This document shows positions 12,801 through 61,055 of a stretch of 64,000 nt of DNA, one piece after another. The notes beneath the pieces were generated by a model. The model saw nothing but the letters and a program-made list of their open reading frames with translations, was not told the origin of the DNA and ran no database searches. A program made the position numbers and the translations under genes. Origin of the DNA: Neoechinorhynchus agilis (taxonomy: Eukaryota; Animalia; Acanthocephala); contig CM121341.1 of NCBI GenBank assembly GCA_051530055.1, positions 9,898,784-9,962,783 on the forward strand. Reading direction: 5' to 3'. How positions within the stretch are numbered: position 1 is the first letter of the stretch; every line of letters starts with the position of its first letter.

Positions 12801-12807
12801 GGCCGAA

Positions 12808-15613: not shown

Positions 15614-16270
15614 TTATTGAGAATAACTCGAATAAACCCGATCAATGATCTTCCATACATCCTCAATTGACCAACGATTTGCAAAATACTCTTTCAAAAT
15701 CGGAACCGATTCTACCGTTCTCTTATTTCTAGAGACAAATTCACTTTTGGCTTCTTTGCGTAAATAGGAATGAATTGTTCGAAAATAGTAGTAGACATAA
15801 AGATCTGCGCAAGTCAATTGGTCAGTGATTATGTAACCACCTTTCCCATAGAGCTGCTCTAATTTTTCAAGTAGAGCGATTGATTTCGGTATTTCCTCGT
15901 CGTAAAACGTTTGCTGCCTTGCTGGGCTTTCATTAGGTGGGACTTGAAAAGCTTGTATAAGTTTTGAGAAATATTCATCAACGATCAAAAGGACTGCATC
16001 GCAACGTGCAGCGTCAATTCGCGTTTTTCCATTCAAGTTATACTTTTTACTGAGGAATCGAATTATCGAGCTTGTTTCACACAGGACTTCATCGTCTACC
16101 TTGAGAACTGGAACTTTGTTTAATGGCATAACGGGTTTATATTTCAAAGGCCAATCTTCAGTTTCAAATCTAAGGTCCGTGAACGGTATACCAATTGCAT
16201 GAAGCATTAGTCGTATAACTTCAGCTCGTCCTTCGAGATCAAAGTAATAAAGGGTGTATTCAGGGAACAT
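15614..16270 (-). CDS. Glutathione S-transferase, sigma-class-like, intronless and intact
   Basis: YTLYYFDLEGRAEVIRLML, MPLNKVPVLKVDD..LCETSSIIRFL, and C-terminal LTCADLYVY (N-capping box). Confidence 0.92.
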   Translation of the reverse strand: MFPEYTLYYFDLEGRAEVIRLMLHAIGIPFTDLRFETEDWPLKYKPVMPLNKVPVLKVDDEVLCETSSIIRFLSKKYNLNGKTRIDAARCDAVLLIVDEYFSKLIQAFQVPPNESPARQQTFYDEEIPKSIALLEKLEQLYGKGGYIITDQLTCADLYVYYYFRTIHSYLRKEAKSEFVSRNKRTVESVPILKEYFANRWSIEDVWKIIDRVYSSYSQ

Positions 16271-16835
16271 CGCGCTTGATGCTAGGTATTCTTTTTCGAC
16301 TAAGAACGAACTTCTGAGGTTTTGCTAAGACTCAAAAGTTTTTCATTGCTCATTGAAGTGAGACTGAGGTGAGCAAAGAGTCGCATTGTCATGATCGAAA
16401 ACTAGATCCTCACTTTATTTGTCGTTGTTGTAGTCCGGGCTAATTTTATTTTCAATTCCCAATAGCGATTCCATCGATTAATTTACAAAATTGGAAACAA
16501 AAATTTAGAGAGATTTAATTGCTCAAAATACAATTGGTAGGGGAATATATCACTAAAGTCTGCACTCGAGATTTTTTGACAGCATTGCAATAATATGCTT
16601 CTTTGTTGTTTAGAAGAAGATTTCAATTATGTTTTAAAGTAACTCACACGCCTAACCTATTGCAAAATATGTTTACGAAAATATCCATAAAATCGATTTT
16701 CACTTGCTTTCAAAAGCACGCTCGTTAGGGCACAATAACCAGTAATTTATTTACCAAATTTCACTAGAACTCTGATATGGCCAATCCGATTCAGCACGCT
16801 TAGTGTGTTAAAAAAACGTACAACAATAAAGCGAA

Positions 16836-17450
16836 ATGAGCAATCCAAAGCAAGTTGAACAAACGATTGAAATCGAAGACGAACCTGTGCTTGATAGTCC
16901 AATGATCAATTCATTATCAGAGAGTCAAATAGCGGAAACTCACAGCGAGTTAGAAAGACAACCAATAACTGAACTTATTATAGATTTACAAACGGATATT
17001 GTGAAGTGTCAGAAAGAGTTGGAAATATATCGGAATAAAGACGAAATCGTAAAAGATGAAATAAATCAAATTAGACTGAATTTGCGTAAATATCGTACAA
17101 TGATGGAACAACGCGTGGAGGAAAATAAAAACAAGTGTAAAAATAAGGCTCGCGAAACAAAATCTCGAGTTACAGTGATGTTATCAAAGCTCAAAACTGA
17201 AATCGATGACATGGAAGTTTTAAATAATAACTTGAGGGAATTGCTCACGAAGGAAAAAAATCAGATTGAGCAACTTAAAGTGGAAATCGATGACTTGAAT
17301 GTACATACTGATGAAGTTGAACGAATGTTGGTTAGAAAAGATCGTCAGATTGATTTCTTAAATAATTGGATCAAGGAATTCGAAAAGACTTATACTTCGA
17401 TGAAGGCTAGGTACCATGCGATTCAAACTGAAAATTCGCGCTGTGTGTAG
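16836..17450 (+). pseudogene. Coiled-coil protein gene, 3'-truncated copy (full copy 51857-52735)
   Basis: Near-identical to ORF 51857..52735 until 17435, where it is fused to a non-LTR RT fragment. Confidence 0.8.
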
Positions 17451-17914: not shown

Positions 17915-19260
17915 TAGATGTATTGAAGAGCAGTGGATGCCAAAGCTGAAGAAACTCCTGAGCTTTTGAAATTGCTATAGGTCGGTTCGGTTTTTAGCCA
18001 AATGGACCATCATCACGGTAAAGAATGTCGGCACGCAAGATTTCGCGAATTGAGACAAATGACAGAAGAGGATGAGAGACGGTCCCACCACCATGATTCG
18101 ACGGTGCCGATAACCGAGCAGGAGGAAGAGATGCAAGTTCAGGAACAGGAACCCGCTGACCCATATGAAGGCCTTAGCACCCTCTGCTGTAAACAGCCCA
18201 TTTTTAAAGGATGCTTTTGAATTTACGGTGGATCGGGGGAGATGGTTGCTGGAAAGGACTACTTCGTAAATCGATAATCGGTGACTGAAGAAATAATATA
18301 AAGACTACACATTGAAAACGTCGGACTGAGGCAAAGAGGATGGTGTATTATCAATCTCCTGGTTTTAGAAAAAGAAGTGGAAAATCGAAGATCGAGATTT
18401 TATGGAAAAATTAGTTAGTGATATCGCATTTCAACTAACTGGAAAACGGACGAATGCGCTTCATAAAACATCGTTGTAATCGCGTTGTTAAAGTAGAATA
18501 AAACGTCCACATTGGCAGGCAGGCGCCCAGTGGCCGTGCGGTGCGCGCGTTCATAAAGCGCTTGATATGTCGCTGGTTCAACACCACCGGTCGCTGGGTT
18601 CCACGGTTGTGTGAGGCTGCTGGAAGGGGTGGGGTCAGGTTTTGAGATCGCCCATGCCCTGTTCCTTCGAGTGCGGCTAAGCGCCTCCGTTGTGCGCAAG
18701 TTAGCCGAAAGGCTCAAAAAGGAATATAGCCGAAGCTATCAAAGAAGATGTCGCAGGACCAATGAGTGTATGTGGCCCTTGATAATAAAATAAAAATAAA
18801 ACAAATTGGCAGGCAGCTCAATTTATACTTTTCATGGAAAAACATTTTTTGACCCAATTGCCGAAATAAACGTACATCTCTAAACGAAAATCGGAATATC
18901 AACGTTTCCAGTAATTTTGAGAAATACTACTCGCATTGAGCCGCTCGTCCTAAATGCGAAGGTTCCACCATTCGCTTCAAAATCGCTCGATTCATCTTAG
19001 AACAAAAAAGAACGAAGTGAGGAACGCGAGTGCATCGATAGAAAGCGGGCAGCGATTTAGAAGGTACAAAAAATAGAAAAATTCACGGTCTCTGTAATGA
19101 TTTGGCGCCCGTTTAAAAAAATTGTCGTCATTTTTCCGCGACGCAATGGCCGAAATAAACGTATATTTTTAAACGAAAATTGGAATATCGACGTTTCCAA
19201 TAATTTCGAGAAATATTACTCACATTGAGGCGCCCGACCTTGTTACGAATGATCTATTAT
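17915..19260 (+). repeat. Segmental duplicate of ~47080-48110; includes a ~290-bp repeat unit also at 36100, 38755 and 40520
   Basis: CTTAG(A/G)TGTATTGAAGAGCAGTGGATG... shared. GAAAA(T/C)TGGAATATC recurs at 18885/19174 and 47764/48054. Confidence 0.9.
18511..18816 (+). mobile_element. 282-bp retroposed insertion with A-rich tail and 12-bp target-site duplication
   Basis: ATTGGCAGGCAG at 18511-18522 and 18805-18816 flanks a GC-rich insert ending ATAATAAAATAAAAATAAAACAA. The paralogous site at 47683-47694 has a single copy and no insert. Confidence 0.85.
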
Positions 19261-19793
19261 TCGCTCCAAAATCGCTCGATTCATCGTAGAACAAAAAGAA
19301 CGAAGTAGGGAACCAGAGTACATCGATAGAAAGTGGGCAGCGATTTAGAAGGTACAAAAAAATTGAAGAATTCAAGCTCTGTGTAATGATTTGGCGCCCG
19401 TTTAAAAAATTGTCGTCATTTATGTCGAAAAAATTAATTTGTGAGAAGTTGCCATTTAGTCCTCTTGCTCGAAGTGTTTTTAAATTAACGGTGATTTTAT
19501 TCGTTTTCTAGGCGGTTGCATATGAACTGTTTAAAAGTTCAACATTGAACCGATGGATAGTTGCAGGTTTCCTAGAATAGAAACTAACAATCGATTTTTA
19601 AGCCGCTTCGTTCGCTTAGCTCAGTTCATAAATCGCAGCACAATCCAAAATTAACAAATAACGCTTTTTATCCTAATCACATGGACCGCTTTGGGTCGTG
19701 GCCAGAAATTTTAAAAACAATTTTACTTTAAAAAAGTAAAAAACGGAATTGCAACCTAACGTTGAAACGGAAAGTGTCAAACCGCCTGCCAAT

Positions 19794-22700
19794 GTTTTGT
19801 AAAAGTGCACTTAACCTAGGAGCAGAAATTGTTCTCTCGCTCCTGAGCTCGGATACAAACTATCATCTCCTGGAAAAGGATGTTTAATTCGAATAACCTC
19901 GTGCCTAGTCGACATTTCAAAAACTTAAACCGGAAAGCATATTTCTCCTATCCCACTGAAAAATGGCCACCGGTTTTACCTAAACAATCATTACAAAAAT
20001 GACGGTCTAAAAAAGAATCAATCATTTCATCTCTGGAACAATGAGGTTCTACCTAACAACAAAAAAAAGCCCTCACTCATTTACGACTTACTAAATTCCA
20101 AACCCACCACGAGATCTTCACAGTCTTCACAGAGTTCATTTTCCTAAATTTTGCCACTGTGCCGAAGATAACCACGTCTCGGAAAAGTGCCCGAATTCTA
20201 AAAATATTCGTTACAGGACCAAATCTTGAATTTGTTTAGCCGCGACAACGCACCTTTCCCCCCGCACCTCGATACTTGCATTTTCTAGTCCATCGAAGAT
20301 ATTTCTCAAGAATAGCATTCCTATGTGTTGCTCAGCTGGTAGTCTTTTTATAGATATGTTTATTTTTTCCATAGTGGGCCGAATAATATGTCCTATATAG
20401 AAGACGGAAAAAATTGACTGAATCTCCTACTGCTTGGAAAAACCAATTAGGTTACCATTAAATAGAATAATGCAATTGATTATTTATTTTTGTCATGAAT
20501 TGTCACAGATGGAAAACTGTAACAAAAATAAAAAGTGTTAACTTAATTCGGTGTTACCGTGGATGCTAGCGGTCGACCTAAAGATTCCGTAGGATCGAAT
20601 AATTCGAGTGCACAATAGTCCAGAAGATGAGATGGGCTAGGCGATGGAAACTGATTTTTAAGGATTTTTAAAAACGATTCGAAGGCACCGTGGGAGCATG
20701 CTAGAAAATGAACAAAAACAATCTATAAGGCTCGGAGGGTTCCATTTGCATTGTATGAAGCGCTGGCGAAGGAAAAATGAAGCTGGGTTCCAAAGTTCTA
20801 AGAAGTAATGCTGAAGCTCGCCAATGCGAAGCCGATTGCGTTCGGCGATCAAGCTAGTAAAATGCTGACGAAAACCATAACGATGGGACATCTCAGGTGA
20901 AACACAATGACAACATTTAGGAAAATCAGGCAAGGGGCGATGTCCCATTGTTTACAAATATTGCAATGAGACAATACGTAGTCGTCCTTTTCTCTAAATT
21001 GATTTTAGGCGAGAAGCGAATCTAAAAGCAGTTGAATGGACAGGTTTGTTGGGAACATCAATAATCCCGAACGTGTCTAGAGGCTTCCACCATAAGAAGA
21101 AACTCGATTTTACAGTTGAAGAGCGATTCAAACTCTAGTCTTTTTTCTCTATGAAGTCCTTTGGCGACTAATTAAACTCTTTCTGAAGTCGTGGAGATTG
21201 CGAAGATCTTGGGGAGTCTAGAAAAAGACGCACCGACATCCACAATTTATACCGCTGTTTTAATTAATGTACAAGTATTCTACACCGCTGGATTCTTAGT
21301 TAAGAAATTTTCGAAGTTTAATCGCTTTTAGGAATTGCAGTTATCTGCTGATTGTCGATAATCTGCTATTCTGGAAATTGTTCAGTGATCATAAAAACAT
21401 CTCTAGGACGTTTATTAAGAAAACAACTCTGATAAATAGAGAAATGCGAATAACTCAGGAAATATTGCAGCCATCCAAAATCTGAAAACATGTTTGGAAT
21501 AAGCTCGTCAAGAAACTCGATTTTACAGTTGAAGAGCGATTCAAACTCTAGTCTTTTTTCTCTATGAAGTCCTTTGGCGACTAATTAAACTCTTTCTGAA
21601 GTCGTGGAGATTGCGAAGATCTTGGGGAGTTTGGAAAAAAAAGAGTGCCACATTTGAGTTGTTAAGTAGAACCTCATTGTCAGAGCAATGAGATGATTGT
21701 ATTCTTTTTACGCCGTCCTTTTTGATTGAACAAGCATATCGGGCAACTGTTTGATAATGATGGTTTAGGCATGACCGTTGGCCATCTTTTAGTGTGATAG
21801 GCGAAATATGCCTTCCGATTTACGTTTGAAAATGTGGACTAGGCACGAGGTTATTCGAGTTGGCACATCTCAACAGGAGCCCACTTGATGAATCAATATT
21901 GTTCCTGCTCATAAATCTCGTATAGAGTTAAATCGTCCGATAATGAAGAGTTTATGCATTGGTTTCCATCATTCGCAAAATATATAAAATTGCAATTGCA
22001 CCTAAACAAAGGATTTCGTACAAGATTGAAAGAAACTGCTTAGAGGGTTATTATTGATCGTATGGCACAGTAAGGGACAAATCTTTGAAAATTCACGTCG
22101 GAAAAACGATGTGGCTACTAAACTTGCTTTTTTATCCTATAAATCGGTCAATCAATAACAACAATGAAGTTTTCTCGTGCGCCTCTATTTTTCGAGGAGA
22201 ATACGTCTAATCATAGGATCTATCGATGAAATAATTATTGGCTGGTCCAAAAATGTAGAAAACGAAAAAACATATCCAAACCTCACAAAAGACGCACCGA
22301 CATCCACAATTTATACCGCTGTTTTAATTAATGTACAAGTATTCTACACCGCTGGATTCTTAGTTAAGAAATCGCTTTTAGGAATTGCAGTTATCTGCTG
22401 ATTGTCGATAATCTGCAATTCTGGAAATTGTTCAGTGATCACAAAAACATCTCTAGGACGTTTATTAAGAAAACAAGTCTCATAAATAGAGAAATGCGAA
22501 TAACTCAGGAAATATTGCAGCTATCCAAAATCTGAAAACATGTTTGGAATAAGCTCGTCAAGAAACTCGATTTTACAGTTGAAGAGCGATTCAAACTCTA
22601 GTCTTTTTTCTCTATGAAGTCCTTTGGCGACTAATTAAACTCTTAAGAAGGCGAGATTACCTCGCGAAATATTTCAAATAAATCAAAAATGTTATGACCG

Positions 22701-23520
22701 GGATTATTTTCACCAAATTTTAAATTGTCTTCAATATAAACTACGTCATTGAATTTGAACCAGCGTTAATAGTTAGGAAAGAAACGTCATGTTAATTATT
22801 GTGTATCGTACAGTTCACAGCCGGTTTTTATTAGGAAATATTCCATGGCTGACGAGTCTCCGCACCAGAAGGGTTTTCCTTCGCAAATGGGCGATTCAGG
22901 CGCAAAGCAGGATGAAGTTGAGCCTTACATTAAGTTGAAGGTAATCAGTCAAGAGATCGGGGAGGTATACTTTAAAGTGAAATCGAATACTGTTTTGGGT
23001 AAACTCATGAAGTCTTATGCTGAGCGGGTTGGTTTGCCCGTTGGGACTCTACGTTTTATGTATGACGGTAAAAGGATCAACGAGGGTGAAACAGCAAGGC
23101 ATTTGGGTATGGACGACGAGGATTGTATTGATGTGTATCAAGAACAAGTTGGTGGGCACGTTGATTGAGTTACTACTCATGTTCGAGAATAAAATATTTT
23201 ATCTGTTCGACTGTTCAATGAACTCACGGCTGATTTTTGGCTCAAGGCCAAGAAAGCTCTCTAAAGGGAAAAATATTTAATAGAAACCATTCTCCGTTCA
23301 ATTTTTGCCCCGTCTGTTTCAAACGAGACTGATCAATAATGATCTCGCTTCGCATTATTCAATAAAAAGTGGCTTTTGTTATCTCTGTAATTCAATGGTA
23401 TTCGTCGATATTCTCAAGTTTGCTTGCTTTTCTGGCTAAAACATTGCGGAACAACTCGGCGATCGGAGAACGACTTATAATGATCTTAATTATTCTTTTT
23501 TTGTCGCCATCGGCAAAAGC
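19794..23520 (+). repeat. Segmental duplication (with internal deletions) of ~58981-61050, carrying SUMO
   Basis: GTTTTGTAAAAGTGCACTTAACCTAGG at 19794 and 58981; identity resumes around SUMO and ends at CGGCAAAAGC (23520/61050). Confidence 0.9.
22845..23168 (+). CDS. SUMO: SUMO precursor, intronless
   Basis: YIKLKVISQ..EVYFKVK...KLMKSYAER.G....LRFMYDGKRI...T...LGMDDEDCIDVYQEQVGG + HVD extension. Confidence 0.95.
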   Translation: MADESPHQKGFPSQMGDSGAKQDEVEPYIKLKVISQEIGEVYFKVKSNTVLGKLMKSYAERVGLPVGTLRFMYDGKRINEGETARHLGMDDEDCIDVYQEQVGGHVD

Positions 23521-32047: not shown

Positions 32048-33898
32048 TGGAGGGCATAGACAGCATGCACAGCCGGTCACGTCTGGATGTAGCTCAGATC
32101 TGCGGGTTTGCTAATACCCGAATTGTGGGGAGTTCCATCCGCACACACCTCTTGCGGTTTGTTGCCGACTAATTTGCCCGTCATGCTACGCAACTTTGGT
32201 AGCACCAGCGTGTGCCTGGACTCTGGCAAGTTCGTCAAACTCAGTTCCAATCCAACAGTAAAACGGGAGACACAACTAAATGCATTCTTGAGGACTCTAC
32301 GGAAAAATAACTCGATTACTGAGCACTTTCATCAACATACGAGGTCTTCTACAGCCAGGGCTTCCTTCTTGTATCTTTCCCCAAAAATACACAAACCAAC
32401 GATACAATACCGACCAATAATAGCCAGCTACAATGCCTTCAATCATCGTTTGGCCCGTAGAATCAATGCACTAATAAGAAGCGTAATGCCGAACACTCCG
32501 TCATACATAGCTGACGGCCCTTCCTTTGGAACCCGAATGCGACTGGAAAAGTATGCACAGTGCAAATTCTTCACGGCCGACGTAAAGTCCTTATTTACCA
32601 ACATTCCACTCCAAGAGACAATTTCCATAGCAGCTGAACTTCTACAAAATCAATGCGAAGAACCGCGCCTTGATCATAAAACGTAGATAGCTCTACTGCA
32701 GTGGTGCACATGCAAGACCGTTTTTGAATTCGATCAAGTTTTCTATGAACAACGCGACGGAGTTGCAATGGGTTCACCTCTGGTACCCACTCTAACAGGT
32801 CTCTACATGAGAAGATGGGAAAACAACTTCTTGAAAATGCAATCCAACATCAAAATCTGGTATCGCTATGTTGACGACGTGTTCATAGTCACTGATGATG
32901 AAACAAGCATGGGAGACCTAAGCATTCCACTCAACATGAAGGATTCAAACATCCAGTGGTCAATGACTCAGGAAGACGACGAGGGTGCTATCTCCTTTTT
33001 GGACGTAAGGATAAAACACGATGATAAAGGCAATATCAAAACACAGCTCTATCGCAAACCAGGTATAGCATGGGGTCCACCTCACTGGTCGAGCCACCAA
33101 CCGTTCCACTATAAAATAACAGCGGCAACGTCCTACTACTTCAAGAGGGCCAGGATGATTTCTTCAGAAAGCAGGGATTGGGAAGAAGAAAAACAAAATA
33201 TCACCAAAGTTCTCAGATAACGAGGCTTCCCTGAATATGCCATCAAAATCAGTCTGAAAAAGGCAAAACAGCGGCCACCGCAAGAAGAAGGAAACCGCGA
33301 GCATCTCCCTCGAATACACTGACTTTTACCACATAAGAGGGAACGCGACCGAAAAACTGAGGCGCCTCAACTACCTCGCTCCAAATCTTTTGATCTACAA
33401 CAAACGGGGCGCATCCATTGCGGGCATTCTCAAGAGGAAAACCAAGCAAGAGACCAAATTAGGGATATACAAAATCCCATGTGCAGAATGCCCAAAGGTC
33501 TACATTGGACAAACCATGCAAGGGATCATTAAACGGATTTCGCAGCATAAACAAGCTTGCAGGACATTCGACAAATCCTCAGCAATCTCGAACCACCAGC
33601 AAACAATCCAGCACAAGGTGGATTTTGAAAAGGCGAGATTCATAACCAGCGAACCGGATCTTAGAAGAAGACTGATTCTTGAGGCCATTCACATCCGGGG
33701 AAATCCGACGATAGAAGGCGATAAATCAAACCACACACTGGTGCTACCAAAGTTGCGTAGCATGACGGGCAAATTAGTCGGCAACAAACCGCAAGAGGTG
33801 TGTGCGGATCGAACGCCCCACACTTCGGGTATTAGCAAACCCGCGGATCTGAGCTACATCCAGACGTGACCGGCTGTGCATGCTGTCTATGTCCTCCA

Positions 33899-35814: not shown

Positions 35815-36229
35815 GTATGCGTGTATTAATAAATAAATAAATAAGATAGTGTCTGTGTGGTTAATGAACCCTGTTGTAAATCGGTGTGCAAGGATGAAAG
35901 ATCGCAACCGCAGGTCGCTGTTAATATTCTGTCGACCGCGACCGACTTAATGTACAAAAGCATCGAGGTTTTAGGTCAGACGGTGGGCAATCTCAGGGAT
36001 TTCTACCATGCGGAATCTAATCCCGTCCGCTTTTCTTCAACTTTTAATAAGTTCAAAATAAAGCGTCCACGATGCAATGACCTAAATGAACGTACATTCC
36101 TAAGCGAAAATTGGAATATCGACGTTTCCAATAATTTCGAGCAATATTACTTACATTGAAGCGCCCGACCTTGTTACGAATGATCTATTACTCGCTCCAA
36201 AATCGCTCGATTCATCGTCTAGTTTATGT

Positions 36230-36940
36230 TTGCAAAAGAATGACCCCATAAAGCACACAAAAGTTCATTTACGAGTCGATGCAGATACACAGTGTGTCCG
36301 ATTTCCGACGAGACGAATTCCGTTCGCACTAAACAAACCGTTAAAAGAAGAACTTGACCGTTTGGTCCAGCGTAGAATTATAGAGCCTGTAGAGAAGGAG
36401 GACAATGATGTCAGCTGAATCACGCCGATAGTCATTGTTCGGAAAAAAGACGGATCCGTGAGAATATGCGGGGATTTCAGGATCACGATTGATCCCCATT
36501 TAATTACCGACTCATATCAGATGCCGACTACGGATGAGCTTCTCAGCAAACTGACGGGAGGAAAAAAATACTCCGTTCTGGATTTGTCAGATGCATACCT
36601 GCAAGTTGAGCTCGATAAGGAAAGTAGCAAACTTTGCGTATTCTGCACACCATTTGGGCTATTCAGATACAGGCGTTTACCTTTTGGACTAACAAATGCC
36701 CCTCAGTTATTCCAGCAGATAGTGGATGAAATGTTGAGAGACGTTCCGAATGTTGGAGTGTATTTGGACGACATAATAATCACCGGAGGGGATGATAAGG
36801 AGCATATTTCGATTCTTCGAAGGGTATTAAGTATTCTGGAAGAGAAGGGTTTTAATTTAACGGAAGAGAAGTGCAAGTTCATGCAAACAAAAGTTACGTA
36901 TTTGGGGCATACGTTGGAGAATGGTTGGATAAGGCGTCCA
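36230..36940 (+). mobile_element. Ty3/Gypsy reverse transcriptase fragment
   Basis: RICGDFR, DLSDAYLQ, PFGLTNAPQLFQ, YLDDIII and YLGH; nonsense codon at ~36418. Confidence 0.92.
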
Positions 36941-37390
36941 ACTGATTATCGAGATGACTAAAAACTGGGCAGTCGTTCGAGGTGCCAACTTGACTTCTAC
37001 TGTTGGCGATCCTATCACAATGCCCTGGTGGCGGCGAGCTTACTACCGAGTGTTAGTCAGCGTACGTAATAGGCAACAATTAAAGCGCTTTGCGGTTATG
37101 GGGCATTTGTTATGGGCTCATTTAGTTGGGCATTATGGTGATTCCTATTTGCCCTACTTGTGGACTGAGTCAACTGTGGCGAGCTACACGGTGCATTGCC
37201 CTGTCAAGGACGCCACTTCTGTCAAGCTGCGTAAACAGGGTTGTCCCTTTCCGGGCAGGCGGGCGAATTGTGTTCCCTACGTTGATGATCAACTCGAGCA
37301 AGGTTCCCGACTGGGGGTTGTAGAGCCAAATAGCCAGTATACAGACCAGGGTAACCAATCTCACGCCACGCGTCCACCCAGCGCTGCTAA
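36938..37390 (+). other. Noda-like virus protein A fragment, piece 3 (region approaching the RdRp)
   Basis: Overlaps piece 2 by ~105 bp (7 substitutions, 1 gap). Continues NLTSTVGDPITMPWWRR...; in a shifted frame SQIASIQTRV resembles the nodavirus SI..RV motif upstream of the RdRp core. Confidence 0.55.
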
Positions 37391-38525
37391 GCCCGAAACT
37401 TGCCCACGACAATGCCCTCAGCCTCCCAGCTGTGGTACTCATGAGCGTAGACGTCGCCGCCTCTCGTGGTCATCGTGACGAACTCATTTTGGACTCGTCC
37501 TGTTACCTCTCCATCAAACAAACTGAACTCTGCAGCGGGACGGTAACGCGCAAACTCATGGGTTATAATGACAAAGGGTGAGTTACAAGCGTCAGTAAAA
37601 TTCAACAAGTGGAATGTAAAAGTCCCACATAAGACAGCACAGCCATCTTATTTGGATCAGTGCACTCCTGGAGTCTATGATAACACAGTGATGGTGAGTC
37701 AACAGACAACAGCGTGGCTTTATCAATGACAGTGATGTTCAGGTAGCAGATGTGGTCGGTTTGCAGGGTGTCCCTCTTCGCAGACCCTCCTACATCACGA
37801 TAGGCTTTGTTGGCCAGCCTCTTCATAACGGAATCAGCAAACTCTTCCAGCTGGGCTCTGACGTAAGCCATGGTCAGGTGCCCTGTCAAGTCATTGCTTT
37901 GAACGAGTGGATGATCCTTGGTGAACTGCTTGAACAGTGCTTTGATCGTTCCAACTTCAATAGGCAATACAGGAGCATCTTGCTTAATACCATATCCAAT
38001 ACACCGGCAACACCACAACATGACAGCCCTTGACACGAACAAAGTGACATACATCGCTGTGCCCAATACGACGAAACAGATAGCGGCCCAGACAACTGGG
38101 ACAATCAACTTAATCAAATCAATGGCAGTCCAGAACGATAGATAATTCAACACTTGGTGACGAGGTACCTCGAACCCCAGGGCAGCATACAAGCTGCAAA
38201 TTAGTGGGATTTTTCGGGTCAATTCACATTGTCGAATGATCGAATCTGCAGAATGGCGAGACAATCGACGTAACAAAACGTCGGATACCTGTTTCTCGAG
38301 CACGCGTCGCAAACACACGAGGTGCCAGGGCTCCTTTCCCGAAAGTAAGCTGCTGGCAACGCTTACACTATCAATGACAGGTATAACCATCGTGCCGAGG
38401 GAGTAAACTAATCTGGTCCAAAAGCGCTCGAACAAGCCAATAGCAGCTGGGATACCACAAACCATTAGGAACAGTGGTAGCACAGTCGTGAAGGGCGAGA
38501 AAATCAGTCGAATCAGGAAAATCAT
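37390..38525 (-). other. Noda-like virus protein A N-terminus: hydrophobic anchor and capping methyltransferase, piece 1
   Basis: GHLTMAYVR (37883), RDVGGSAKRD (37799), CYHRLQEC, (Y)VDFYI after a frameshift, and PFVIITHEF..DGE..V..TTRGGDVYAHEYHSW. This parallels Flock House virus H..A.R / VDYY / HTF..VSGGA.WVH.VWDW. Confidence 0.8.
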
Positions 38526-38934
38526 GATCAGAGGAATCGGTGTGCAAGGATGAAAGATCGCAACCGCAGGTCGCTGTTAATATTCTGTCGACCGCGACCG
38601 ACTTAATGTACAAAAACATCGAGGTTTTAGGTCAGACGGTGGGCAATCTCAGGGATTTCTACCATGCGGAATCTAATCCCGTCCGCTTTTCTTCAACTTT
38701 TAATAAGTTCAAAATAAAGCGTCCACGATGCAATGACCTAAATGAACGTACATTCCTAAGCGAAAATTGGAATATCGACGTTTCCAATAATTTCGATCAA
38801 TATTACTTATATTGAGGTTGTAGTGAGCATTAACGACGTCATAAGGTCCATGTTAACGTTTTCCGTGTTATGTTGAATAAATAAGCCATTTTTGTGCAAC
38901 GACAGTAGATTTTTCGATCTACTGATGCCAGCCG

Positions 38935-39399
38935 TCGTTAATTACGCGCGACTTTGTTCCTGGGGTCAATCAATAGTAATTTTCATGTACCCAGTTAGGT
39001 GGTCTTATATCACTGGCGACCAAAAGAACTTGGCCAATACTGTTCCAAAACATGCATCTAGCTATGTCATTGGGTCTTACAGGCAGCACAATGTTCAGGC
39101 TGTGCATGAAGGTCAAGACTACGTCTTCAAATCGTTTGACAATCACACTGTCACGTTGGGCTCCATTCGCGCCACCACGGTCATGCAAGCAGCCTTTCAG
39201 GTTGCTTTTTTAGAGAGAATTGAGAATTGGGCTGGCGTGTGCCGCACTCTTATCAGCCACAATGATGACAAAATGGAGGTTATTGATATGGCGGCCCAAC
39301 TGATTATCGAGATGGCTAACGACTGGGCAGTCGTTCGAAGTGTTAACTTGACTTCTATTGTTGCGATCCTATCACAATGCCCTGGTGGCGGCGAGCTTA
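38935..39399 (+). other. Noda-like virus protein A fragment, piece 2 (post-methyltransferase region)
   Basis: Open frame QSIVIFMYPVRW...AAQLIIEMANDWAVVRSVNLTS; shares its 3' 104 bp with piece 3. Confidence 0.55.
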
Positions 39400-39429
39400 G
39401 AGTTGCTTCATTTATGAATTTTGATTCCA

Positions 39430-40050
39430 AGAATATTTTCTAATTGGCGGTGGGTTTAGGGTTGCTTTTCGATGTAGTGTTCGTCTCATTCTTCTCTCGC
39501 TGAAAACTCATCCTCGTCTTCATTAAGGACCTTTTAATTGCCCAATTCGGATATCCTTCCTCTCTGAGCATTGATGTTATTGAGTCAATTCCTTGCCTCC
39601 GTCATTTCTCCTCGGAGCATATTCTCATAGCTCTCCTGAATAAGGCATCCGATGCTGCTATCTTGTATCTCACAGGGTGGTCAAGTCCAGTTTTGGTTCG
39701 CCACAGTTTTTCTTGAGTATTTTATCCGTCAACTCAATGGCCTCTTGAAGAGGAATGTTAGTGAATAAAGATTTAATATCGGCCGTTATAAACCATGATA
39801 TGTTTGATGGAAGATTCCGCACTTCTGCGAAATTCATCAATAAAGCAACGCTGAACAAATTACAACCTCCTATAAGAAGATGCGAGACCCACTCGGTGTC
39901 AATATATTCAAAAGCAGCAACGAAGTTGGCGGGTATATTCAAAAAGAAACCAAAACAAGAGGATAAAAGTATAATCTAAAAAGTACCATGCAGACAATGC
40001 GGAAAATATTATGTTGGACAAACAATTCAAGGACTAAAAAAGCGCCCCCC
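39430..40050. mobile_element. Penelope-like fragments in opposite orientations
   Basis: Minus 39790-39480: ADIKSLFTNIPLQE and HPVRYKIAA..LFRRAMRIC. Plus 39820-40050: II*KVPCRQCGKYYVGQT (GIY-YIG). Confidence 0.8.
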
Positions 40051-40869
40051 CTTTTCCTTTGAAAATCGGGATCATAATACTTCACCTCGATTCGTCTGGA
40101 ATCCGCTCAATATCGAAGATACGTCGTACAAATTTAGTCAATAAATGAATAGCATCATCTCTAAATTTTTCGATCTACTGATGCCAGCTACCACAACAAT
40201 TGGTGACCCCGACGCTGTCGACCGTGGTTCGACAGTAGAAGCGAATAGCAACTTGTATACCTTCCGTTTACAAGCGTAAACATTATTATTGTGATTTGAG
40301 TTTTGAAAACTATTTACAATCTACCGCCGTCATTATCATGAAATAAAAAGACATCAGGTGTACCAATACCATTATTCGCTTTATGGAGATCGCTACCACG
40401 CCCAAAAGGAAAAGTTTATTTGTGTGTGGCGCTAAAACCAAAGGGATGCCCTAATACTTCAATGCAACAAACTGATTTCACCAATTACACAAAAAATGCA
40501 CTACATTTTTAAAAGAAAGTTGGAATGTGGAAGTCTTCAATAATTTCAAACGAAGTTTCCATTATTCGCTCCCAAATCGCTCGACTCATCTTAGAACAAC
40601 AAAGAACGATGGGAGGAACACAAATGCAACAATAGAAAGCGGACAGCGATTTGGAAATTACGAAAAAATAGAAGAATTCAAGCTCTATGTGATGATTCGG
40701 CGCCCGTTTAAAAAAATTATCGTCATTTTTATTGAAAAAATTAATTTCTGAGAAGTTGCCATTTAGTCTTCTTGCTCCAAGTGTTTTTAATTTAACGTCG
40801 ATTTTATCCGTTTTCTAAGGTGTTACAGGTTTTCTAGAATGGAAACTAACAATCGATTTTAAGTGGATA

Positions 40870-41065: not shown

Positions 41066-41358
41066 GCTACAAATTTCATCACTTTTGTGTGCTGTTCTCT
41101 TCTTGGCATAAGGGTAAAAGAAAATATTTTACGGTTGATATTATCGTTGTGATTGCCACACTAAATAAAAGGGTGTATTATATATTTAAAAAATAATTCC
41201 CCTTATCTTATATAGATTCTCGTTTGAACTGGAAATGGCGATTTTTTGCTAAGATTTATTCCCAGGAATCTTTCCTTTAATTTTCAAGTTTCATTTGTCG
41301 TGGCTTCTTCGCGGGACCAATCAGAGGCACAATAAAAAATTAAATCAGTGAATAGTTT

Positions 41359-41547
41359 CCGCCATTAACGAAAAAGGATTTTGCTCTCGTACGTTAAATT
41401 AATGTACGTTGAGATCGCTCTTCGCCATTTTAAGTTAAAAGTGCCAACCTTCTCCGCCATTAACGAAAAAGGATTTTGCTCTCGTACGTTAAATTAATGT
41501 ACGTTGAGATCGCTCTTCGCCATTTTAAGTTAAAAGTGCCAACCTTC
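41359..41547. repeat. Exact tandem duplication, 2 x 95 bp
   Basis: CCGCCATTAACGAAAAAGG... at 41359 and 41454. Confidence 0.92.
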
Positions 41548-46990: not shown

Positions 46991-48599
46991 ACCCGCTTAT
47001 TCGCGAATTGTCAACATCGGGGGAGGGAGTCCGAATAAGATAACGGTTCGTGGTGTTCGATCCGTTACTACTGGGTCATTAAATCTTAGGTGTATTGAAG
47101 AGCAGTGGATGTCAAAGCTGAAGAAACTCCTGAGCTTTTGAAATTGCTGGAGGTCGGTTCGGTTTTTAGCCAAATGGACCATCATCACGGTAAAGAATGT
47201 CGGCACGCAAGATTTCGCGAATTGAGACAAATGACAGAAGAGGATGAGAGACGGGCCCACCACCATGATTCGACAGTGCTGATAACCGAGCAGGAGGAAG
47301 AGGTGCAAGTTCAGGAACAGGAACCCGCTGACCCATATGAAGGCCTTAGCACCCTCTGCTGTAAACAGCCCATTTTTAAAGGATGCCTTTGAATTTACGG
47401 TGGATCGGGGGAGATGGTTGTTGGAAAGGACTACTTCGTAAATCAATAATCGGTGACTGAAGAAATAATATAAAGACTACACATTGAAAACGTCGGACTG
47501 AGGCAAAGAGGATGGTGTATTATCAATCTCCTGGTTTTAGGAAAAGAAGTGGAAAATCGAAGATCAAGATTTTATGGAAAAATTAGCTAGTGATATCGCA
47601 TTTCAACTAACTGGAAAACGGACGAATGCGCTTCATAAAACATCGTTGTAATCGCGTTGTTAAAGTAGAATAAAGCGTCCACATTGGCAGGCAGCTCAAT
47701 TTATACTTTTCATGGAAAAACATTTTTTGACCCAATTGCCGAAATAAACGTACATCTCTAAACGAAAATTGGAATATCAACGTTTCCAGTAATTTTGAGA
47801 AATACTACTCGCATTGAGCCGCTCGTCCTAAATGCGAAGGTTCCACCATTCGCTTCAAAATCGCTCGATTCATCTTAGAACAAAAAAGAACGAAGAGAGA
47901 AACGCGAGTGCATCGATAGAAAGCGGGCAGCGATTTAGAAGTTACAAAAAAATAGAAGAATTCAAGCTCTGTGTAATGATTTGGCGCCCGTTTAAAAAAA
48001 ATGTCGTCATTTTTCCGCGACGCAATGGCCGAAATAAACGTATATTTTTAAACGAAAATTGGAATATCGACGTTTCCAATAATTTCGAGAAATATTAGTC
48101 ACATTGAGGCGTTCGTCGTTTACACACAATAGAACGCCGTAGCCTGAGCAATTGTCAATTTTGGACATTTGACCTTGCTTGAAGGGGCCTCGATGCGCGC
48201 TCAAATTTAATAAAAATTGCGCTCTCCGTTCAAATAGGAATATACTTGAAGGCAAACCTCCCGATCCTTCGGGTTTTGGTGCAGTCAGTTCATCGTCCGA
48301 TATGGATTGTGAACGAATTACCCGGGATCGAAAGGAAGTAATTGATCAAGGTTTGTTTCGATTCAATGACTCTAACTCCGTTTTTGATGGAGTTTTGGGA
48401 TTATCATATTCTCAAGGTCAGGTGGATGATCATTAGGAATCTGGTAAGTTTTCTGTCGTCTCTGGTCGTGATAGAGACAAAAGTTCTGCCCACAAAAGTA
48501 GTTATGTCCTTCGTCCTGTAAGGAAAGAGGATTACATAGTGATAATCAAAAATGAAGATCTTTCATCAAAAAAGTAATATCAAAAAGTCATCAAAGATT

Positions 48600-51856: not shown

Positions 51857-52735
51857 TCAGTGGAATTTCAGAGGAAATGCACCTGAGATTCTATGAATTA
51901 TAGAGCGTATCCTGAGGAAAATCATTTGGCCGAGTCTCGCTGTTTGGTATTTGCAAGCACGATAATATGTTTGGAATGATGGTTTGTTTGATCCAGGAAA
52001 TAACCACTGAACAGCATTTTCGATGAAGCTCTTGCACTTAATGGCAGTTGCCGATACAACCATCGACCGTTCTTTGTATCTTATCTCCATCTCGAGATCT
52101 TGACTCGTCTCGTGCATAAAATTTGATAGCTGGTCATTTTCAGTTTGAATCGCATGGTACGGAACCTTCATCGAAGTATAAGTCTTTTCGAATTCCTTGA
52201 TCCAAGTATTTAGGAGATCAATCTGACGATCTTTTCTAGCCAACATTCGTTCAACTTCACCAGTATGTACATTCAAGTCATCGATTTCCACTTCAAGTTG
52301 CTGAGTCTGATTTTTTTCCTTCGTGAGCAATTCTCTCAAGTTATTATTTAAAACTTCCATGTCATCGATTTCATTTTTAAGCTTTGATAACATCACTGTA
52401 ACTCGAGATTTTGTTTCGCGAGCCTTATTTTTACACTTGTTTTTATTTTCCTCCACGCGTTGTTCCATCATTGTACGATATTTACGCAAATTCAGTCTAA
52501 TTTGATTTATTTCATCTTTTACGATTTCGTCTTTATTCCGATATATTTCCAACTCTTTCTGACACTTCACAATATCCGTTTGTAAATCTATAACAAGTTC
52601 AGTTATTGGTTGTCTTTCTAACTCGCTGTGAGTTTCCGCTATTTGACTCTCTGATAATGAATTGATCATTGGACTATCAAGCACAGGTTCGTCTTCGATT
52701 TCAATCGTTTGTTCAACTTGCTTTGGATTGCTCAT
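51857..52735 (-). CDS. Coiled-coil protein of unknown function (292 aa), full-length copy
   Basis: Uninterrupted ATG ORF with heptad-like E/K/L-rich middle; lies within the inverted duplicate 52136-53356 of 16216-17435. Confidence 0.75.
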   Translation of the reverse strand: MSNPKQVEQTIEIEDEPVLDSPMINSLSESQIAETHSELERQPITELVIDLQTDIVKCQKELEIYRNKDEIVKDEINQIRLNLRKYRTMMEQRVEENKNKCKNKARETKSRVTVMLSKLKNEIDDMEVLNNNLRELLTKEKNQTQQLEVEIDDLNVHTGEVERMLARKDRQIDLLNTWIKEFEKTYTSMKVPYHAIQTENDQLSNFMHETSQDLEMEIRYKERSMVVSATAIKCKSFIENAVQWLFPGSNKPSFQTYYRACKYQTARLGQMIFLRIRSIIHRISGAFPLKFH

Positions 52736-53301
52736 TTCGCTTTATTGTTGTACGTTTTTTTAACACACTAAGCGTGCTGAATCGGATTGGCCATATCAGA
52801 GTTCTAGTGAAATTTGGTAAATAAATTACTGGTTATTATGCCCTAACGAGCGTGCTTTTGAAAGCAAGTGAAAATCGATTTTATGGATATTTTCGTAAAC
52901 ATATTTTGCAATAGGTTAGGCGTGTGAGTTACTTTAAAACATAATTGAAATCTTCTTCTAAACAACAAAGAAGCATATTATTGCAATGCTGTCAAAAAAT
53001 CTCGAGTGCAGACTTTAGTGATATATTCCCCTACCAATTGTATTTTGAGCAATTAAATCTCTCTAAATTTTTGTTTCCAATTTTGTAAATTAATCGATGG
53101 AATCGCTATTGGGAATTGAAAATAAAATTAGCCCGGACTACAATAACGACAAATAAAAGTGAGGATCTACTTTTCGATCATGACAATGCGACCCTTTGCT
53201 CACCTCAGTCTCACTTCAATGAGCAATGAAAAACTTTTGAGTTTTAGCAAAACCTCAAAAGTTCGTTCTTAGTCGACAAAGAATGCCAAGTATCAAGCGC
53301 G

Positions 53302-53356
53302 ATGTTTCCTGAATACACTCTTTATTACTTTGATCTCGAAGGACGAGCTGAAGTTA
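53302..53356 (+). pseudogene. GST 5' stub (first 18 codons)
   Basis: MFPEYTLYYFDLEGRAEV is identical to the start of 15614..16270, then unrelated sequence follows. Confidence 0.9.
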
Positions 53357-54039
53357 CACACAAAATATTTTTGACGGAGGTACAAGCTACAGTCCAAGTG
53401 GATGGGCCATATGGCGGACTGGGCTCTCTGGGTTCAAAGATGGACACAAATGGAAGAGGAGTACGCGAGACGCAAGATGTTAGAAGCGCTGGAACAATTG
53501 GGTGGACTTGATAACCCAAGTTTATCCCAAATGTTGACAAAGGGTCATTGTGAGCAATTCGGCATTAAGGCTACTCCATATTTACTAGATTCTATCTCTG
53601 ATTTTAAAATGGGTAAAACAATGGATCTATGTCGAATGATAAACAGTTCTCCAGAACATGTAATTGCATCAACTCTGCCCTTTATCGAGGTCACGGATAA
53701 TTTGTTAAAGCTCTGTGTAAGCTTAAAAGCCTATTGGAACACTGTCTCAATACCAACTTAGAAATCTTCCAATTACAATTAGCAATAGAATCTATAGGTA
53801 GCAAAATTGACCAAAATCCAGTTCATTAATCGATGGATTATACCATTACCAACAAATTGCAGTTCATTTCCACGACTAAGATGAACAGTAGGAATTCCAT
53901 AACATCATTGGGTATGGATTTTTAATGGACTTACAAAATTCCAACAATCCAATCGATGCATCGCCAAAATCACTTTCACTTGGTAACACTGTCCAATCTC
54001 TTCACTTTTAAAAGCAAGACCACCAACTTTATTCGTGGT

Positions 54040-58877: not shown

Positions 58878-60373
58878 ACCGACACTAAAACCGTCCAATC
58901 AATCGAAGGCGTAATCGTGCGCTTTACTTCGCAACTCCCTTGTCACACAATCTCTACGAGGTGGTCAACTGTCATCCAACGTTTTGTAAAAGTGCACTTA
59001 ACCTAGGAGCAGAAATTTCTCTCTCGCTCCTGAGCTCGGATACAAACTATCATCTCCTGGAAAAGGATGTTTAATTCGAATAACCTCGTGCCTAGCCGAC
59101 ATTTTCAAACGTAAATCAGAAAGCATATTTCGCCTATCCCACTGAAAAATGGCCACCGGTTATACCTAAACAATCATTACAAAAATGACGGTCTAAAAAA
59201 GAATCAATCATTTCATCTCTGGAACAATGAGGTTCTACCTAACAACAAAAAAGGCCCTCACTCATTCACGACTTACTAAATTCCAAACCCACCACGAGAT
59301 CTTCACAGTCTTCACAGAGTTCATTTTCCTAAATGTTGCCACTGTGCCGATGATAACCACGTCTCGGAAAAGTGCCCGAATTCTAAAAATATTCGTTACA
59401 GGACCAAATCTTGAATTTGTTTAGCCGCGACAACGCACCTTTCCCCCCGCACCTCGATACTTGCATTTTCTAGTCCATCGAAGATATTTCTCAAGAATAG
59501 CATTCCTATGTGTTGCTCAGCTGGTAGTCTTTTTATAGATATGTTTATTTTTTCCATACTGGGCCCAATAATATGTCCTATATAGAAGACGGAAAAAATT
59601 GACTGAATCTCCTACTGCTTGGAAAAACCAATTAGGTTACCACTAAATAGAATAATGCAATTGATTATTTATTTTTGTCATTAATTGCCACAGATGGAAA
59701 ACTGTAACAAAAATAAAAATGTTAACTTAATTCGGTGTTACCGTGGATGCTAGCGGTCGACCTAAAGATTCCGGAGGCTCGAATAATTCGAGTGCACAAT
59801 AGTCCAGACGATGAGATGGGCTAGGCGATGGAAACTGATTTATAAGGATTTTTAAAAACGATTCGAAGGCTCCGTGGGAGCATGCTAGAAAATGAACAAA
59901 AACAATCATTTTCGAAGTTAAATCGCTTTTAGGAATTGCAGTTATCTGCTGATTGTCGATAATCTGCAATTCTGGAAATTGTTCAGTGATCACAAAAACA
60001 TCTCTAGGACGTTTATTAAGAAAACAAGTCTCATAAATAGAGAAATGCGAATAACTCAGGAAATATTGCAGCTATCCAAAATCTGAAAACATGTTTGGAA
60101 TAAGCTCGTCAAAAGTCATAAGCGTGTTAGATCATGAAAATTGCAATAAACAACCAATTTGATGTCTCCGTGAATCGTGCAAACGATTTTCGAAGAAATA
60201 TCGCTTTCTTATCAACGCTTAGATAATTACTTCGTCCAGCGATTCTTTTTAAATTGTCTTCAATATAAACTACGTCATTGAATTTGAACCAGCGTTAATA
60301 GTTAGGAAAGAAACGTCATGTTAATTATTGTGTATCGTACAGTTCACAGCCGGTTTTTATTAGGAAATATTCC

Positions 60374-60697
60374 ATGGCTGACGAGTCTCCGCACCAGAAG
60401 GGTTTTCCTTCGCAAATGGGCGATTCAGGCGCAAAGCAGGATGAAGTTGAGCCTTACATTAAGTTGAAGGTAATCAGTCAAGAGATCGGGGAGGTATACT
60501 TTAAAGTGAAATCGAATACTGTTTTGGGTAAACTCATGAAGTCTTATGCTGAGCGGGTTGGTTTGCCCGTTGGGACTCTACGTTTTATGTATGACGGTAA
60601 AAGGATCAACGAGGGTGAAACAGCAAGGCATTTGGGTATGGACGACGAGGATTGTATTGAAGTGTATCAAGAACAAGTTGGTGGGCACGTTGATTGA
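60374..60697 (+). CDS. SUMO: SUMO precursor, second intact copy
   Basis: Identical to 22845..23168 except CIDVY changed to CIEVY. Confidence 0.95.
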   Translation: MADESPHQKGFPSQMGDSGAKQDEVEPYIKLKVISQEIGEVYFKVKSNTVLGKLMKSYAERVGLPVGTLRFMYDGKRINEGETARHLGMDDEDCIEVYQEQVGGHVD

Positions 60698-61055
60698 GTT
60701 ACTACTCATGTTCGAGAATAAAATATTTTATCTGTTCGACTGTTCAATGAACTCACGGCTGATTTTTGGCTCAAGGCCAAGAAAGCTCTCTAAAGGGAAA
60801 AATATTTAATAGAAACCATTCTACGTTCAATTTTTGCCCCGTCTGTTTCAAACGAGACTGATCAATAATGATCTCGCTTCGCATTATGCAATAAAAAGTG
60901 GCTTTTGTTATCTCTGTTATTCAATGGTATTCGTCGATATTCTCAAGTTTGCTTGCTTTTCTGGCTAAAACATTGCGGAACAACTTGGCGATCGGAGAAC
61001 GACTTATAATGATCTTAATTATTCTTTTTTTTGTCGCCATCGGCAAAAGCAAACA

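What the first reader, a model, noticed from the sequence alone, without database searches (positions are those of the whole stretch)
36938..39399. Noda-like RNA1 present as three scrambled pieces from at least two variants
The inferred viral order is piece 1 (38525 to 37390, minus), piece 2 (38935-39399, plus), piece 3 (36938-37390, plus). Pieces 2 and 3 overlap by ~105 bp with 7 substitutions and 1 gap. About 2 kb of replicase, including a long hydrophobic N-terminus, can be reconstructed. Noda-like EVEs are less commonly reported than rhabdo-like ones.
Basis: partly seen in the sequence, partly recalled or inferred. Interest (0 to 1): 0.75.

Follow-up and report, generated by a model that had tools for sequence, protein, structure and literature searches.

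The report
Sinaivirus-like fossil in thorny-headed worm
An animal genome, likely a thorny-headed worm's, holds a broken 2-kb fossil of the capping-enzyme gene of a Lake Sinai virus-like RNA virus, likely copied in by a retrotransposon and likely scrambled later by one inversion: a familiar kind of viral fossil in a group with almost no known viruses.

Summary
The three pieces, their order (1, 2, 3) and the 105-nt overlap with 7 substitutions and 1 gap are real. The virus is not Nodaviridae proper. Pieces 1 and 2 hit Pfam Chropara_Vmeth. Piece 3 matches the same relatives and carries the start of an RdRp frame overlapping in +1, the layout of Lake Sinai/chroparavirus-type genomes (32 of 32 relatives). 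The RdRp core is absent, so these 2 kb are the capping-enzyme ORF1, not a protein-A replicase. Pieces 1 and 2 abut within one codon, so one 1.5-kb inversion likely split them. Piece 3 is joined, in the same sense and with 7/8 microhomology, to a Ty3/gypsy RT fragment. 'Two variants' is not supported: 6 of 7 overlap differences change the residue, unlike natural strains (68% synonymous) and like neutral decay. DNA from three studies covers it at single-copy depth, with stops and indels segregating. A matching predicted protein is deposited as a hypothetical protein of the acanthocephalan Neoechinorhynchus agilis. Verdict: a decaying endogenous viral element of a known kind, from a virus group and host phylum where my searches found no earlier report.

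The parts
35879..36159 (+). Copy A of a 281-bp direct repeat. Not an LTR: its 3' part is a piece of a dispersed 289-bp host repeat that runs on to 36218.
   Evidence: 3 differences from copy A'; the 289-bp family also lies at 18851-19421, 47729-48111 and 40494-40817
36219..36935 (+). Decayed Ty3/gypsy-type reverse transcriptase fragment (one stop), joined directly to viral piece 3
   Evidence: RVT_1 E 6e-30; a paralogous contig in run X4 follows it to 36935 and then leaves; paralog contigs differ at 22 of 530 bases. The gypsy assignment rests on recalled motifs.
36936..37389 (+). Viral piece 3: C-terminal part of ORF1 (end of the Iceberg region and downstream), open for 150 codons; its first 105 bases overlap the end of piece 2
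   Evidence: Profile of relatives E 5e-14, positions 462-623; no Pfam virus hit
37243..37386 (+). Start of the RdRp reading frame, overlapping ORF1 in +1 and interrupted by one stop; no RdRp core motifs
   Evidence: Profile of 4 relatives' RdRp ORFs, positions 3-50 of 577, E 9e-7 with X at stops; same +1 offset in 32 of 32 relatives
37390..38534 (-). Viral piece 1: hydrophobic N-terminus and methyltransferase-guanylyltransferase core, with two frame breaks close together near 37590-37630
   Evidence: PF19223 E 7e-12 and 1e-18; H-x6-R, HxC and C-x6-C motifs; 25 of 27 invariant columns of 13 relatives kept; the part before the breaks is deposited as a hypothetical protein of N. agilis
38535..38817 (+). 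Copy A' of the 281-bp repeat
38819..38932 (+). High-copy LTR-like repeat, starting with TG and cut 10 bases short of its 3' end at the junction with piece 2
   Evidence: Reads from other copies have varied 5' flanks and continue into an LTR end plus a primer-binding-site-like word; window copy at 40162-40216; 6/8 terminal inverted match. That the word matches tRNA-Trp is recalled, not tested.
38933..39399 (+). Viral piece 2: Iceberg region of ORF1; its copy of the overlap carries the one-base gap
   Evidence: PF19223 173-302, E 1e-11; profile positions 344-472; a premature stop segregates in reads
39400..40150 (.). Penelope-like retroelement fragments in both orientations, flanking piece 2
   Evidence: tblastx to the RT/GIY-YIG element at 32093-33869, E 1e-18; high read depth and opposite-strand joints

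Best explanation
This is a decaying endogenous copy of most of ORF1 (capping enzyme) and the first 50 codons of the overlapping RdRp frame of an unknown Lake Sinai/chroparavirus-like RNA virus, lying among retroelement fragments of a host that is likely the acanthocephalan N. agilis; it was likely made into DNA by a Ty3/gypsy reverse transcriptase, and pieces 1 and 2 were likely split later by one inversion. SHOWN: identity, order, +1 RdRp stub, presence in DNA of three studies at single-copy depth, broken frames, and the direct same-sense RT-virus junction with imperfect microhomology. INFERRED: (a) capture by template switching between gypsy RNA and viral RNA (about 0.55); (b) pieces 1 and 2 were one stretch, cut once by an inversion of about 37390-38932 that also carried copy A' and the LTR-like repeat (about 0.8); (c) piece 3 is a second, overlapping copy from the same viral source, and its differences from piece 2 arose mostly after insertion (about 0.6); (d) it makes no working protein (about 0.95). 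Any role would be as a source of small RNAs, which is untested.
For: Pfam and profile mapping. All 13 relatives scanned are PF19223 proteins without an RdRp domain; named members of the group include Lake Sinai virus, Hubei tombus-like virus 43, Wenzhou crab virus 4 and Wenling tombus-like viruses 4 and 5. The last codon of piece 1 and the first of piece 2 fall on the same position in 13 of 14 relatives where both could be placed (41 in the set). The cut LTR-like repeat continues for 2 bases across the far breakpoint (weak, 1 in 16). The RT junction matches at 7 of 8 bases, null 0.002. Contigs bridge RT|3 (X1, X2), 3|1 (X1, X4), 1|A' (X2-X5) and 2|Penelope (X2, X3), and no joint restores another order. 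Of 9 listed segregating SNPs, 2 are synonymous, 6 change the residue and 1 makes a stop. Precedents: PMC5177903, 10.1101/127498.
Against: No intact LTR pair, PBS-PPT layout or target-site duplication surrounds the virus, and my first idea that the 281-bp repeat is an LTR failed. A third of the window is short duplicated patches (54 pairs, 9 inverted), so the RT junction could be a later DNA-level join. The overlap copies differ far more (7/104) than A and A' do (3/281; P=0.005), though not more than the RT and its paralog (P=0.30). At 3.4% decay per copy 2.6 stops are expected in the ORF1 frames and none is fixed (P=0.07). All 8 differences sit in the first 68 of 105 bases (P=0.03). The LTR|piece 2 junction is bridged by only 30 letters on one side, below the tool's bar of 31. 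The tree leaves piece 1 unplaced on a long branch. 17 rows of read differences were not shown.
Confidence: 0.6

Rival explanations
1. Two different viral variants were captured separately (pieces 1+2 and piece 3) and landed side by side.
For: 7 differences in 104 bases against 3 in 281 for the neighbouring duplicate; no fixed stop in 659 ORF1 codons; runs of 7 differences with at most 1 synonymous do occur between natural strains in 3/137, 13/254 and 20/242 cases.
Against: Only 1 of 7 is synonymous, against 65-75% over ORF1 and 15:4, 23:9 and 21:8 in the matching region of three natural strains of one relative (P=0.005). The neighbouring RT has decayed to a similar degree. Scoring the two copies against the relatives' profile could not tell which is the more virus-like.
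Confidence: 0.25
2. The virus entered once by any host reverse transcriptase, and all present junctions, the RT junction included, are later DNA-level duplications, deletions and inversions by microhomology-mediated repair in a repeat patchwork.
For: 33% of the window has a second copy inside the window, median 180 bp. Each of the other viral ends joins a different repeat (LTR-like, copy A', Penelope-like). Microhomology fits end-joining as well as template switching. Rearrangement and duplication of such elements is reported in mosquitoes (10.1101/128637, passages).
Against: The junction is same-sense and inside a gypsy pol region, the pattern enriched at mosquito EVEs (10.1101/127498, passages). 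This rival does not say what made the cDNA.
Confidence: 0.3
3. The part of piece 1 before the breaks is a domesticated host gene, as its deposited gene model implies.
For: 307 open codons with the catalytic H-x6-R, HxC and C-x6-C motifs kept; a gene model exists.
Against: The domain is cut by frame breaks within the core. A one-base indel (5 of 19 reads, X6) and a 7-base deletion (X5 contig) segregate inside this frame. Segregating SNPs are mostly nonsynonymous.
Confidence: 0.03
4. Assembly chimera or contamination with viral or other DNA.
For: The region is repeat-rich; no listed contig spans the whole stretch.
Against: Raw genomic reads of another study (X8, X6; one sample) cover every bin, and contigs of further runs bridge the junctions. 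The matching gene model lies on a 19.4-Mb contig. An RNA virus has no DNA stage of its own (established knowledge).
Confidence: 0.02

Closest known systems
Lake Sinai virus (Sinaivirus) and chroparavirus-type ORF1, Pfam PF19223; unclassified relatives such as Hubei tombus-like virus 43, Wenzhou crab virus 4 and IMG/VR contigs L001-L005
   Same: Hydrophobic N-terminus, MTase-GTase core with H-x6-R, HxC and C-x6-C, Iceberg region, RdRp in a separate overlapping +1 frame (PMC4392871).
   Different: Best identities are only 42% (piece 1a), 43-53% (1b), 25-27% (2) and 24-33% (3); no supported sister in the tree; it is integrated, broken, and lacks the RdRp core and capsid.
eBxnv-1, the endogenous nodavirus element of the nematode Bursaphelenchus xylophilus (PMC5177903)
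   Same: Single-copy DNA fossil of a noda-related positive-strand virus tied to an LTR retrotransposon; template switching proposed.
   Different: eBxnv-1 is an intact RdRp ORF inside a Bel/Pao element with both LTRs, PBS and PPT, and is expressed. This one is the capping-enzyme gene of the chropara/sinai side, in three pieces, next to a gypsy RT fragment without an LTR pair.
Aedes non-retroviral EVEs among Ty3/gypsy fragments in piRNA clusters (10.1101/127498, 10.1101/128637)
   Same: Viral fragments interleaved with LTR-element pieces, same-sense with gypsy, duplicated and rearranged.
   Different: Those are mostly flavi-, rhabdo- and chuvirus-derived, in unidirectional clusters with small-RNA data. 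Here the orientation is mixed and small RNAs were not examined.
Rhabdovirus-like RdRp EVEs of the acanthocephalan Pomphorhynchus laevis (PMC12548735)
   Same: RNA-virus fossils in a thorny-headed worm assembly, deposited as uncharacterised proteins.
   Different: Negative-strand RdRps on unplaced contigs of uncertain origin. This is a positive-strand capping gene whose matching model lies on a 19.4-Mb contig, and an RdRp-based screen would not see it.

Membership tests
Chropara/sinaivirus-group ORF1 (MTase-GTase, PF19223) | Profile match above the curated cut-off | tested here: met
   45.4, 67.9 and 44.7 bits against a cut-off of 22.9 for three native frames
Chropara/sinaivirus-group ORF1 (MTase-GTase, PF19223) | Catalytic His with Arg at +7 (PMC4392871) | tested here: met
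   Residue 216 of piece 1, at the start of the profile match
Chropara/sinaivirus-group ORF1 (MTase-GTase, PF19223) | HxC motif and two Cys spaced by 6 residues, which set chropara apart from noda (PMC4392871 section 12) | tested here: met
   Residues 258 and 281, one occurrence each
Chropara/sinaivirus-group ORF1 (MTase-GTase, PF19223) | DxY motif after the Cys pair | tested here: inconclusive
   Such a word lies at the expected place but in a third frame between the two breaks; too short to score
Chropara/sinaivirus-group ORF1 (MTase-GTase, PF19223) | [quoted passage not shown] | tested here: met
   Kyte-Doolittle peaks of 2.18 (residues 1-33) and 2.53 (131-170); hydropathy only
Chropara/sinaivirus-group ORF1 (MTase-GTase, PF19223) | Amphipathic helix just after the Iceberg region | tested here: inconclusive
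   A basic 18-mer near 37020-37090 scores high through charge; hydrophobic moment only 0.13-0.31
Chropara/sinaivirus-group ORF1 (MTase-GTase, PF19223) | RdRp in a separate, overlapping frame | tested here: met
   +1 stub, E 9e-7; +1 overlap in 32 of 32 loci holding both ORFs (35 loci held, one contig counted twice, 3 too short)
Nodaviridae protein A | Capping domain and RdRp in one reading frame | tested here: not met
   The RdRp start lies in another frame
Nodaviridae protein A | Noda_Vmethyltr (PF19222) match | tested here: not met
   12.1 bits, E 0.16, cut-off 30; no PDB chain of a nodavirus found with single pieces or the relatives' profile
Non-retroviral endogenous viral element | Present in host genomic DNA, joined to host sequence, in more than one sample | tested here: met
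   Runs of three studies, one of which may be the source; junction-bridging contigs; single-copy depth 117-129 in X1 against 239 on the two-copy repeat
Non-retroviral endogenous viral element | Decay after insertion | tested here: met
   Three fixed frame breaks, one stop in the RdRp frame, a segregating stop and indels
Non-retroviral endogenous viral element | Empty or orthologous site that dates the insertion | not testable with these tools
   No genome is held for this window
EVE captured inside an LTR retrotransposon (eBxnv-1 type) | Paired LTRs, PBS and PPT, and a target-site duplication around the viral sequence | tested here: not met
   The 281-bp repeat is not an LTR; only one cut LTR-like repeat lies inside the locus
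EVE captured inside an LTR retrotransposon (eBxnv-1 type) | Direct same-sense junction with element sequence, with microhomology | tested here: met
   RT ends at 36935; 7/8 match, null 0.002; fits DNA repair too
piRNA-cluster EVE | Antisense 27-32 nt RNAs mapping to the element | not testable with these tools
   No small-RNA data laid; the likely host keeps PIWI, piRNA clusters and ping-pong (PMC12256650, passages)

The most novel reading that the evidence does not exclude
A thorny-headed worm captured a positive-strand Lake Sinai-like virus as a gypsy-virus chimeric cDNA in a piRNA-producing repeat patchwork. That would be heritable antiviral memory of the mosquito type in a spiralian parasite, and a record of a sinaivirus-like lineage that infects Acanthocephala, perhaps gained from crustacean intermediate hosts.
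Probability: 0.17. Interest if true: 0.68.

Novelty: new member of a known kind. Interest (0 to 1): 0.42.

Why it matters
It is fossil evidence that a sinaivirus/chroparavirus-like positive-strand virus reached the germ line of an acanthocephalan. For this phylum my searches found only rhabdovirus-like EVEs in one other species. Searches for EVEs of this virus group listed none; only some of the listed papers were opened, and subscription journals are not covered. It shows that capping-enzyme profiles find EVEs that RdRp screens miss, and that one such EVE is deposited as a host protein. The RT junction and the clean inversion make it a compact case of how such fossils form and break up. The mechanism itself is known.

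Tried and rejected
(1) The 281-bp direct repeat as an LTR pair: it looked like TG...CA, but a dispersed 289-bp repeat runs straight through the supposed end; rejected. (2) A 5-base word shared by the end of piece 1 and the start of piece 2 as the breakpoint: relatives place the ends about 6 codons further apart than that idea needs; rejected. (3) An LTR-element insertion between pieces 1 and 2: the LTR-like repeat is cut and piece 1 does not join its TG end; rejected. (4) Word-indexed protein searches with pieces 2 and 1b found nothing; pattern scans of viral contigs with four pieces and of metagenome contigs with piece 1b found nothing; the Atlas gave no usable hit; PDB sequence searches found nothing. 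(5) Telling which overlap copy is more virus-like failed: both scored below zero. (6) The tree of the native MTase part of piece 1 with 39 relatives left it unresolved. (7) Expression: no RNA holder listed. Runs X2-X5 are only guessed to be RNA; their contig depth is about 2-4 over the RT and piece 3 and 5-10 over pieces 1a and 2, but no silent control was laid and contig depth is no measure of expression, so I draw nothing from it. (8) No RdRp core in the window. (9) P0013, 1 of 15 phmmer hits (a 33-residue match in 4 stretches), was dropped unscanned. (10) The chropara alignment in the supplement of PMC4392871 is not held as text, so motifs were checked against its main text and my own set of relatives. 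(11) No earlier findings of this scan. No structure was predicted.
Full report
OBSERVATION. The window is eukaryotic and made largely of retroelement fragments and short duplications: 20,941 of 64,000 bases have a second copy inside it (54 pairs, 9 inverted, median 180 bp). The overlap between 36938-37042 and 39296-39399 has 7 substitutions and 1 gap. The pieces sum to 2066 bases.

IDENTITY. Each native frame was scanned alone. The two frames of piece 1 and the frame of piece 2 hit Pfam Chropara_Vmeth at consecutive positions 4-96, 104-173 and 173-302; the nodavirus model reached only E 0.16; piece 3 had no virus hit. A full HMMER search with the first frame of piece 1 gave 15 proteins. One is this locus's own gene model, one was dropped as a short repetitive match, and 13 are 639-925-residue PF19223 proteins with no RdRp domain, on contigs of 2.5-5.1 kb. 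Their profile finds 4 of 2698 window ORFs, the four viral frames, in the order 1, 2, 3, with piece 3 at E 5e-14. A larger profile agrees. Piece 1 keeps the His with Arg at +7, the HxC motif and the Cys pair spaced by 6 residues that PMC4392871 gives for the chropara group (I read passages and sections 8 and 12 of that paper). Fetched relatives carry ORF1 and an RdRP_3 ORF overlapping it in +1, in 32 of 32 loci holding both. Piece 3 holds the first 50 positions of that RdRp frame, also in +1 and cut by a stop (E 9e-7). Named members of the group are Lake Sinai virus, Hubei tombus-like virus 43, Wenzhou crab virus 4, and Wenling, Sanxia and Beihai tombus-like viruses. The source was therefore a sinaivirus/chroparavirus-type virus. 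The element is most of ORF1 plus an RdRp stub, with no polymerase core. No close relative was found, and the tree leaves it unplaced.

HOST AND REALITY. P0001 is identical at 267 of 267 aligned residues apart from a 20-residue gap. It is deposited as a hypothetical protein of Neoechinorhynchus agilis, Acanthocephala, on a 19.4-Mb contig. The host assignment is an inference from this. Five indexed runs of two studies hold the stretch. Raw genomic reads of a third study (X8 and X6, one sample) cover every bin. Contigs bridge RT|piece 3 (X1, X2), piece 3|piece 1 (X1, X4), piece 1|repeat (X2-X5) and piece 2|Penelope (X2, X3). The LTR|piece 2 junction is bridged by 30 letters on the left, one under the tool's bar. 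Depth is single-copy, and no listed joint gives another order. X1 may be the source of the window.

ANATOMY. From left to right: copy A of a 281-bp repeat, a gypsy-type RT fragment to 36935, piece 3 (+), piece 1 (-), copy A', an LTR-like repeat cut 10 bases short, piece 2 (+), and Penelope-like fragments. The 281-bp repeat is not an LTR. At the RT junction, 7 of the last 8 RT bases match the viral bases that precede the overlap in piece 2, offset by one (null 0.002). The last codon of piece 1 and the first of piece 2 fall on the same position in 13 of 14 relatives. Independent fragments would rarely abut so closely in about 650 codons, so one break is inferred. One inversion of about 37390-38932 accounts for the opposite strand of piece 1 and for the cut repeat, which continues for 2 bases across the far breakpoint (weak).

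ONE SOURCE OR TWO VARIANTS. Six of the 7 overlap substitutions change the residue. Three natural strains of one relative, 6-12% apart, show 65-75% synonymous differences over ORF1 and in the matching region; 1 of 7 against the pooled 68% has P=0.005, and against the neutral 29% P=0.36. Differences segregating in reads look neutral too: 2 synonymous, 6 nonsynonymous and 1 stop among the 9 listed, plus indels, one of them inside the broken stretch of piece 1 (17 rows not shown). Against this: A and A' are much closer (3/281, P=0.005), no stop is fixed in 659 ORF1 codons where 2.6 are expected (P=0.07), and the differences cluster in the first 68 bases (P=0.03). Runs of 7 with at most 1 synonymous occur in 2-8% of cases between natural strains. 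The RT and its paralog differ by 22/530, not distinguishable from 7/104. Decay after insertion is favoured (about 0.6) over two variants (about 0.25); error-prone synthesis near the junction remains possible.

MECHANISM. Shown: a viral ORF1 fossil joined directly and same-sense to a gypsy RT fragment. Inferred: a gypsy reverse transcriptase switched between its own RNA and viral RNA, the cDNA entered a repeat-dense region, and later duplication, an LTR-element insertion into copy A' and one inversion produced today's order. The rival is that all junctions are later DNA repair products (0.3). A working protein is unlikely.

COMPARISON. PMC5177903 (parts 1-2 of 4 read) describes a nodavirus RdRp captured inside a Bel/Pao element in a nematode. 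10.1101/127498 and 10.1101/128637 (passages) describe gypsy-linked, rearranged EVEs in mosquito piRNA clusters. PMC12548735 (passages) reports rhabdovirus-like EVEs in Pomphorhynchus laevis and no other virus described for that host. PMC12256650 (passages) reports piRNAs, clusters and ping-pong in acanthocephalans. PMC12690905, PMC12922265 and PMC4231630 (term look-ups) showed no EVE of this virus group. Searches listed no such report; other papers were seen as listings only, supplements were not searched except that of PMC4392871, and bioRxiv supplements are closed. Recalled, from no call: gypsy RT motifs, the tRNA-Trp primer site, and crustacean intermediate hosts for this species (one search states that for P. 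laevis only).

VERDICT. A real endogenous viral element of a known kind, correctly spotted but mis-assigned within the noda-related viruses and over-read as two variants. Its value lies in the virus group, the host phylum and the readable junctions. Interest 0.42.

Noticed in passing
window:43720-45660 (+): GC-rich (50-54%) gene-like stretch of about 640 codons in several broken frames, ending in an A-rich tail. It may be a second viral fossil (capsid or nucleoprotein; a guess). No Pfam, PDB or word-index hit; a viral-contig scan did not complete.
   Followed up: partly
window:22718-23521, 60247-61051 and 61047-61596: SUMO gene in two 99% identical copies plus an inverted, more diverged partial copy next to the second.
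   Followed up: no
window:15614-16324 (-): Intronless glutathione S-transferase frame, next to a coiled-coil gene duplicated in inverted form at 16213-17435 / 52136-53359 (97.6%).
   Followed up: no
window:31951-33993: Penelope-like element (RT plus GIY-YIG) between 264-bp inverted repeats, 96% alike.
   Followed up: partly
window:18851-19421, 47729-48111, 36066-36218, 40494-40817: Dispersed 289-bp repeat that also occurs as head-to-tail dimers; nature unknown.
   Followed up: partly
window:1-1067 and 41358-41547: Tandem arrays of 135 bp (7.9 copies) and 95 bp (2 copies).
   Followed up: no
window:12801-13776, 20377-22717, 59562-60112: A mosaic of 50-450-bp segments copied several times at 95-100% identity, beside a gypsy RNase H fragment at 12210-12875: recent patchwork duplication like that around the viral pieces.
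   Followed up: no
P0001 (window:37605-38465, -): A public gene model turns the viral frame into a host 'hypothetical protein' with a 20-codon gap, likely a predicted intron.
   Followed up: yes
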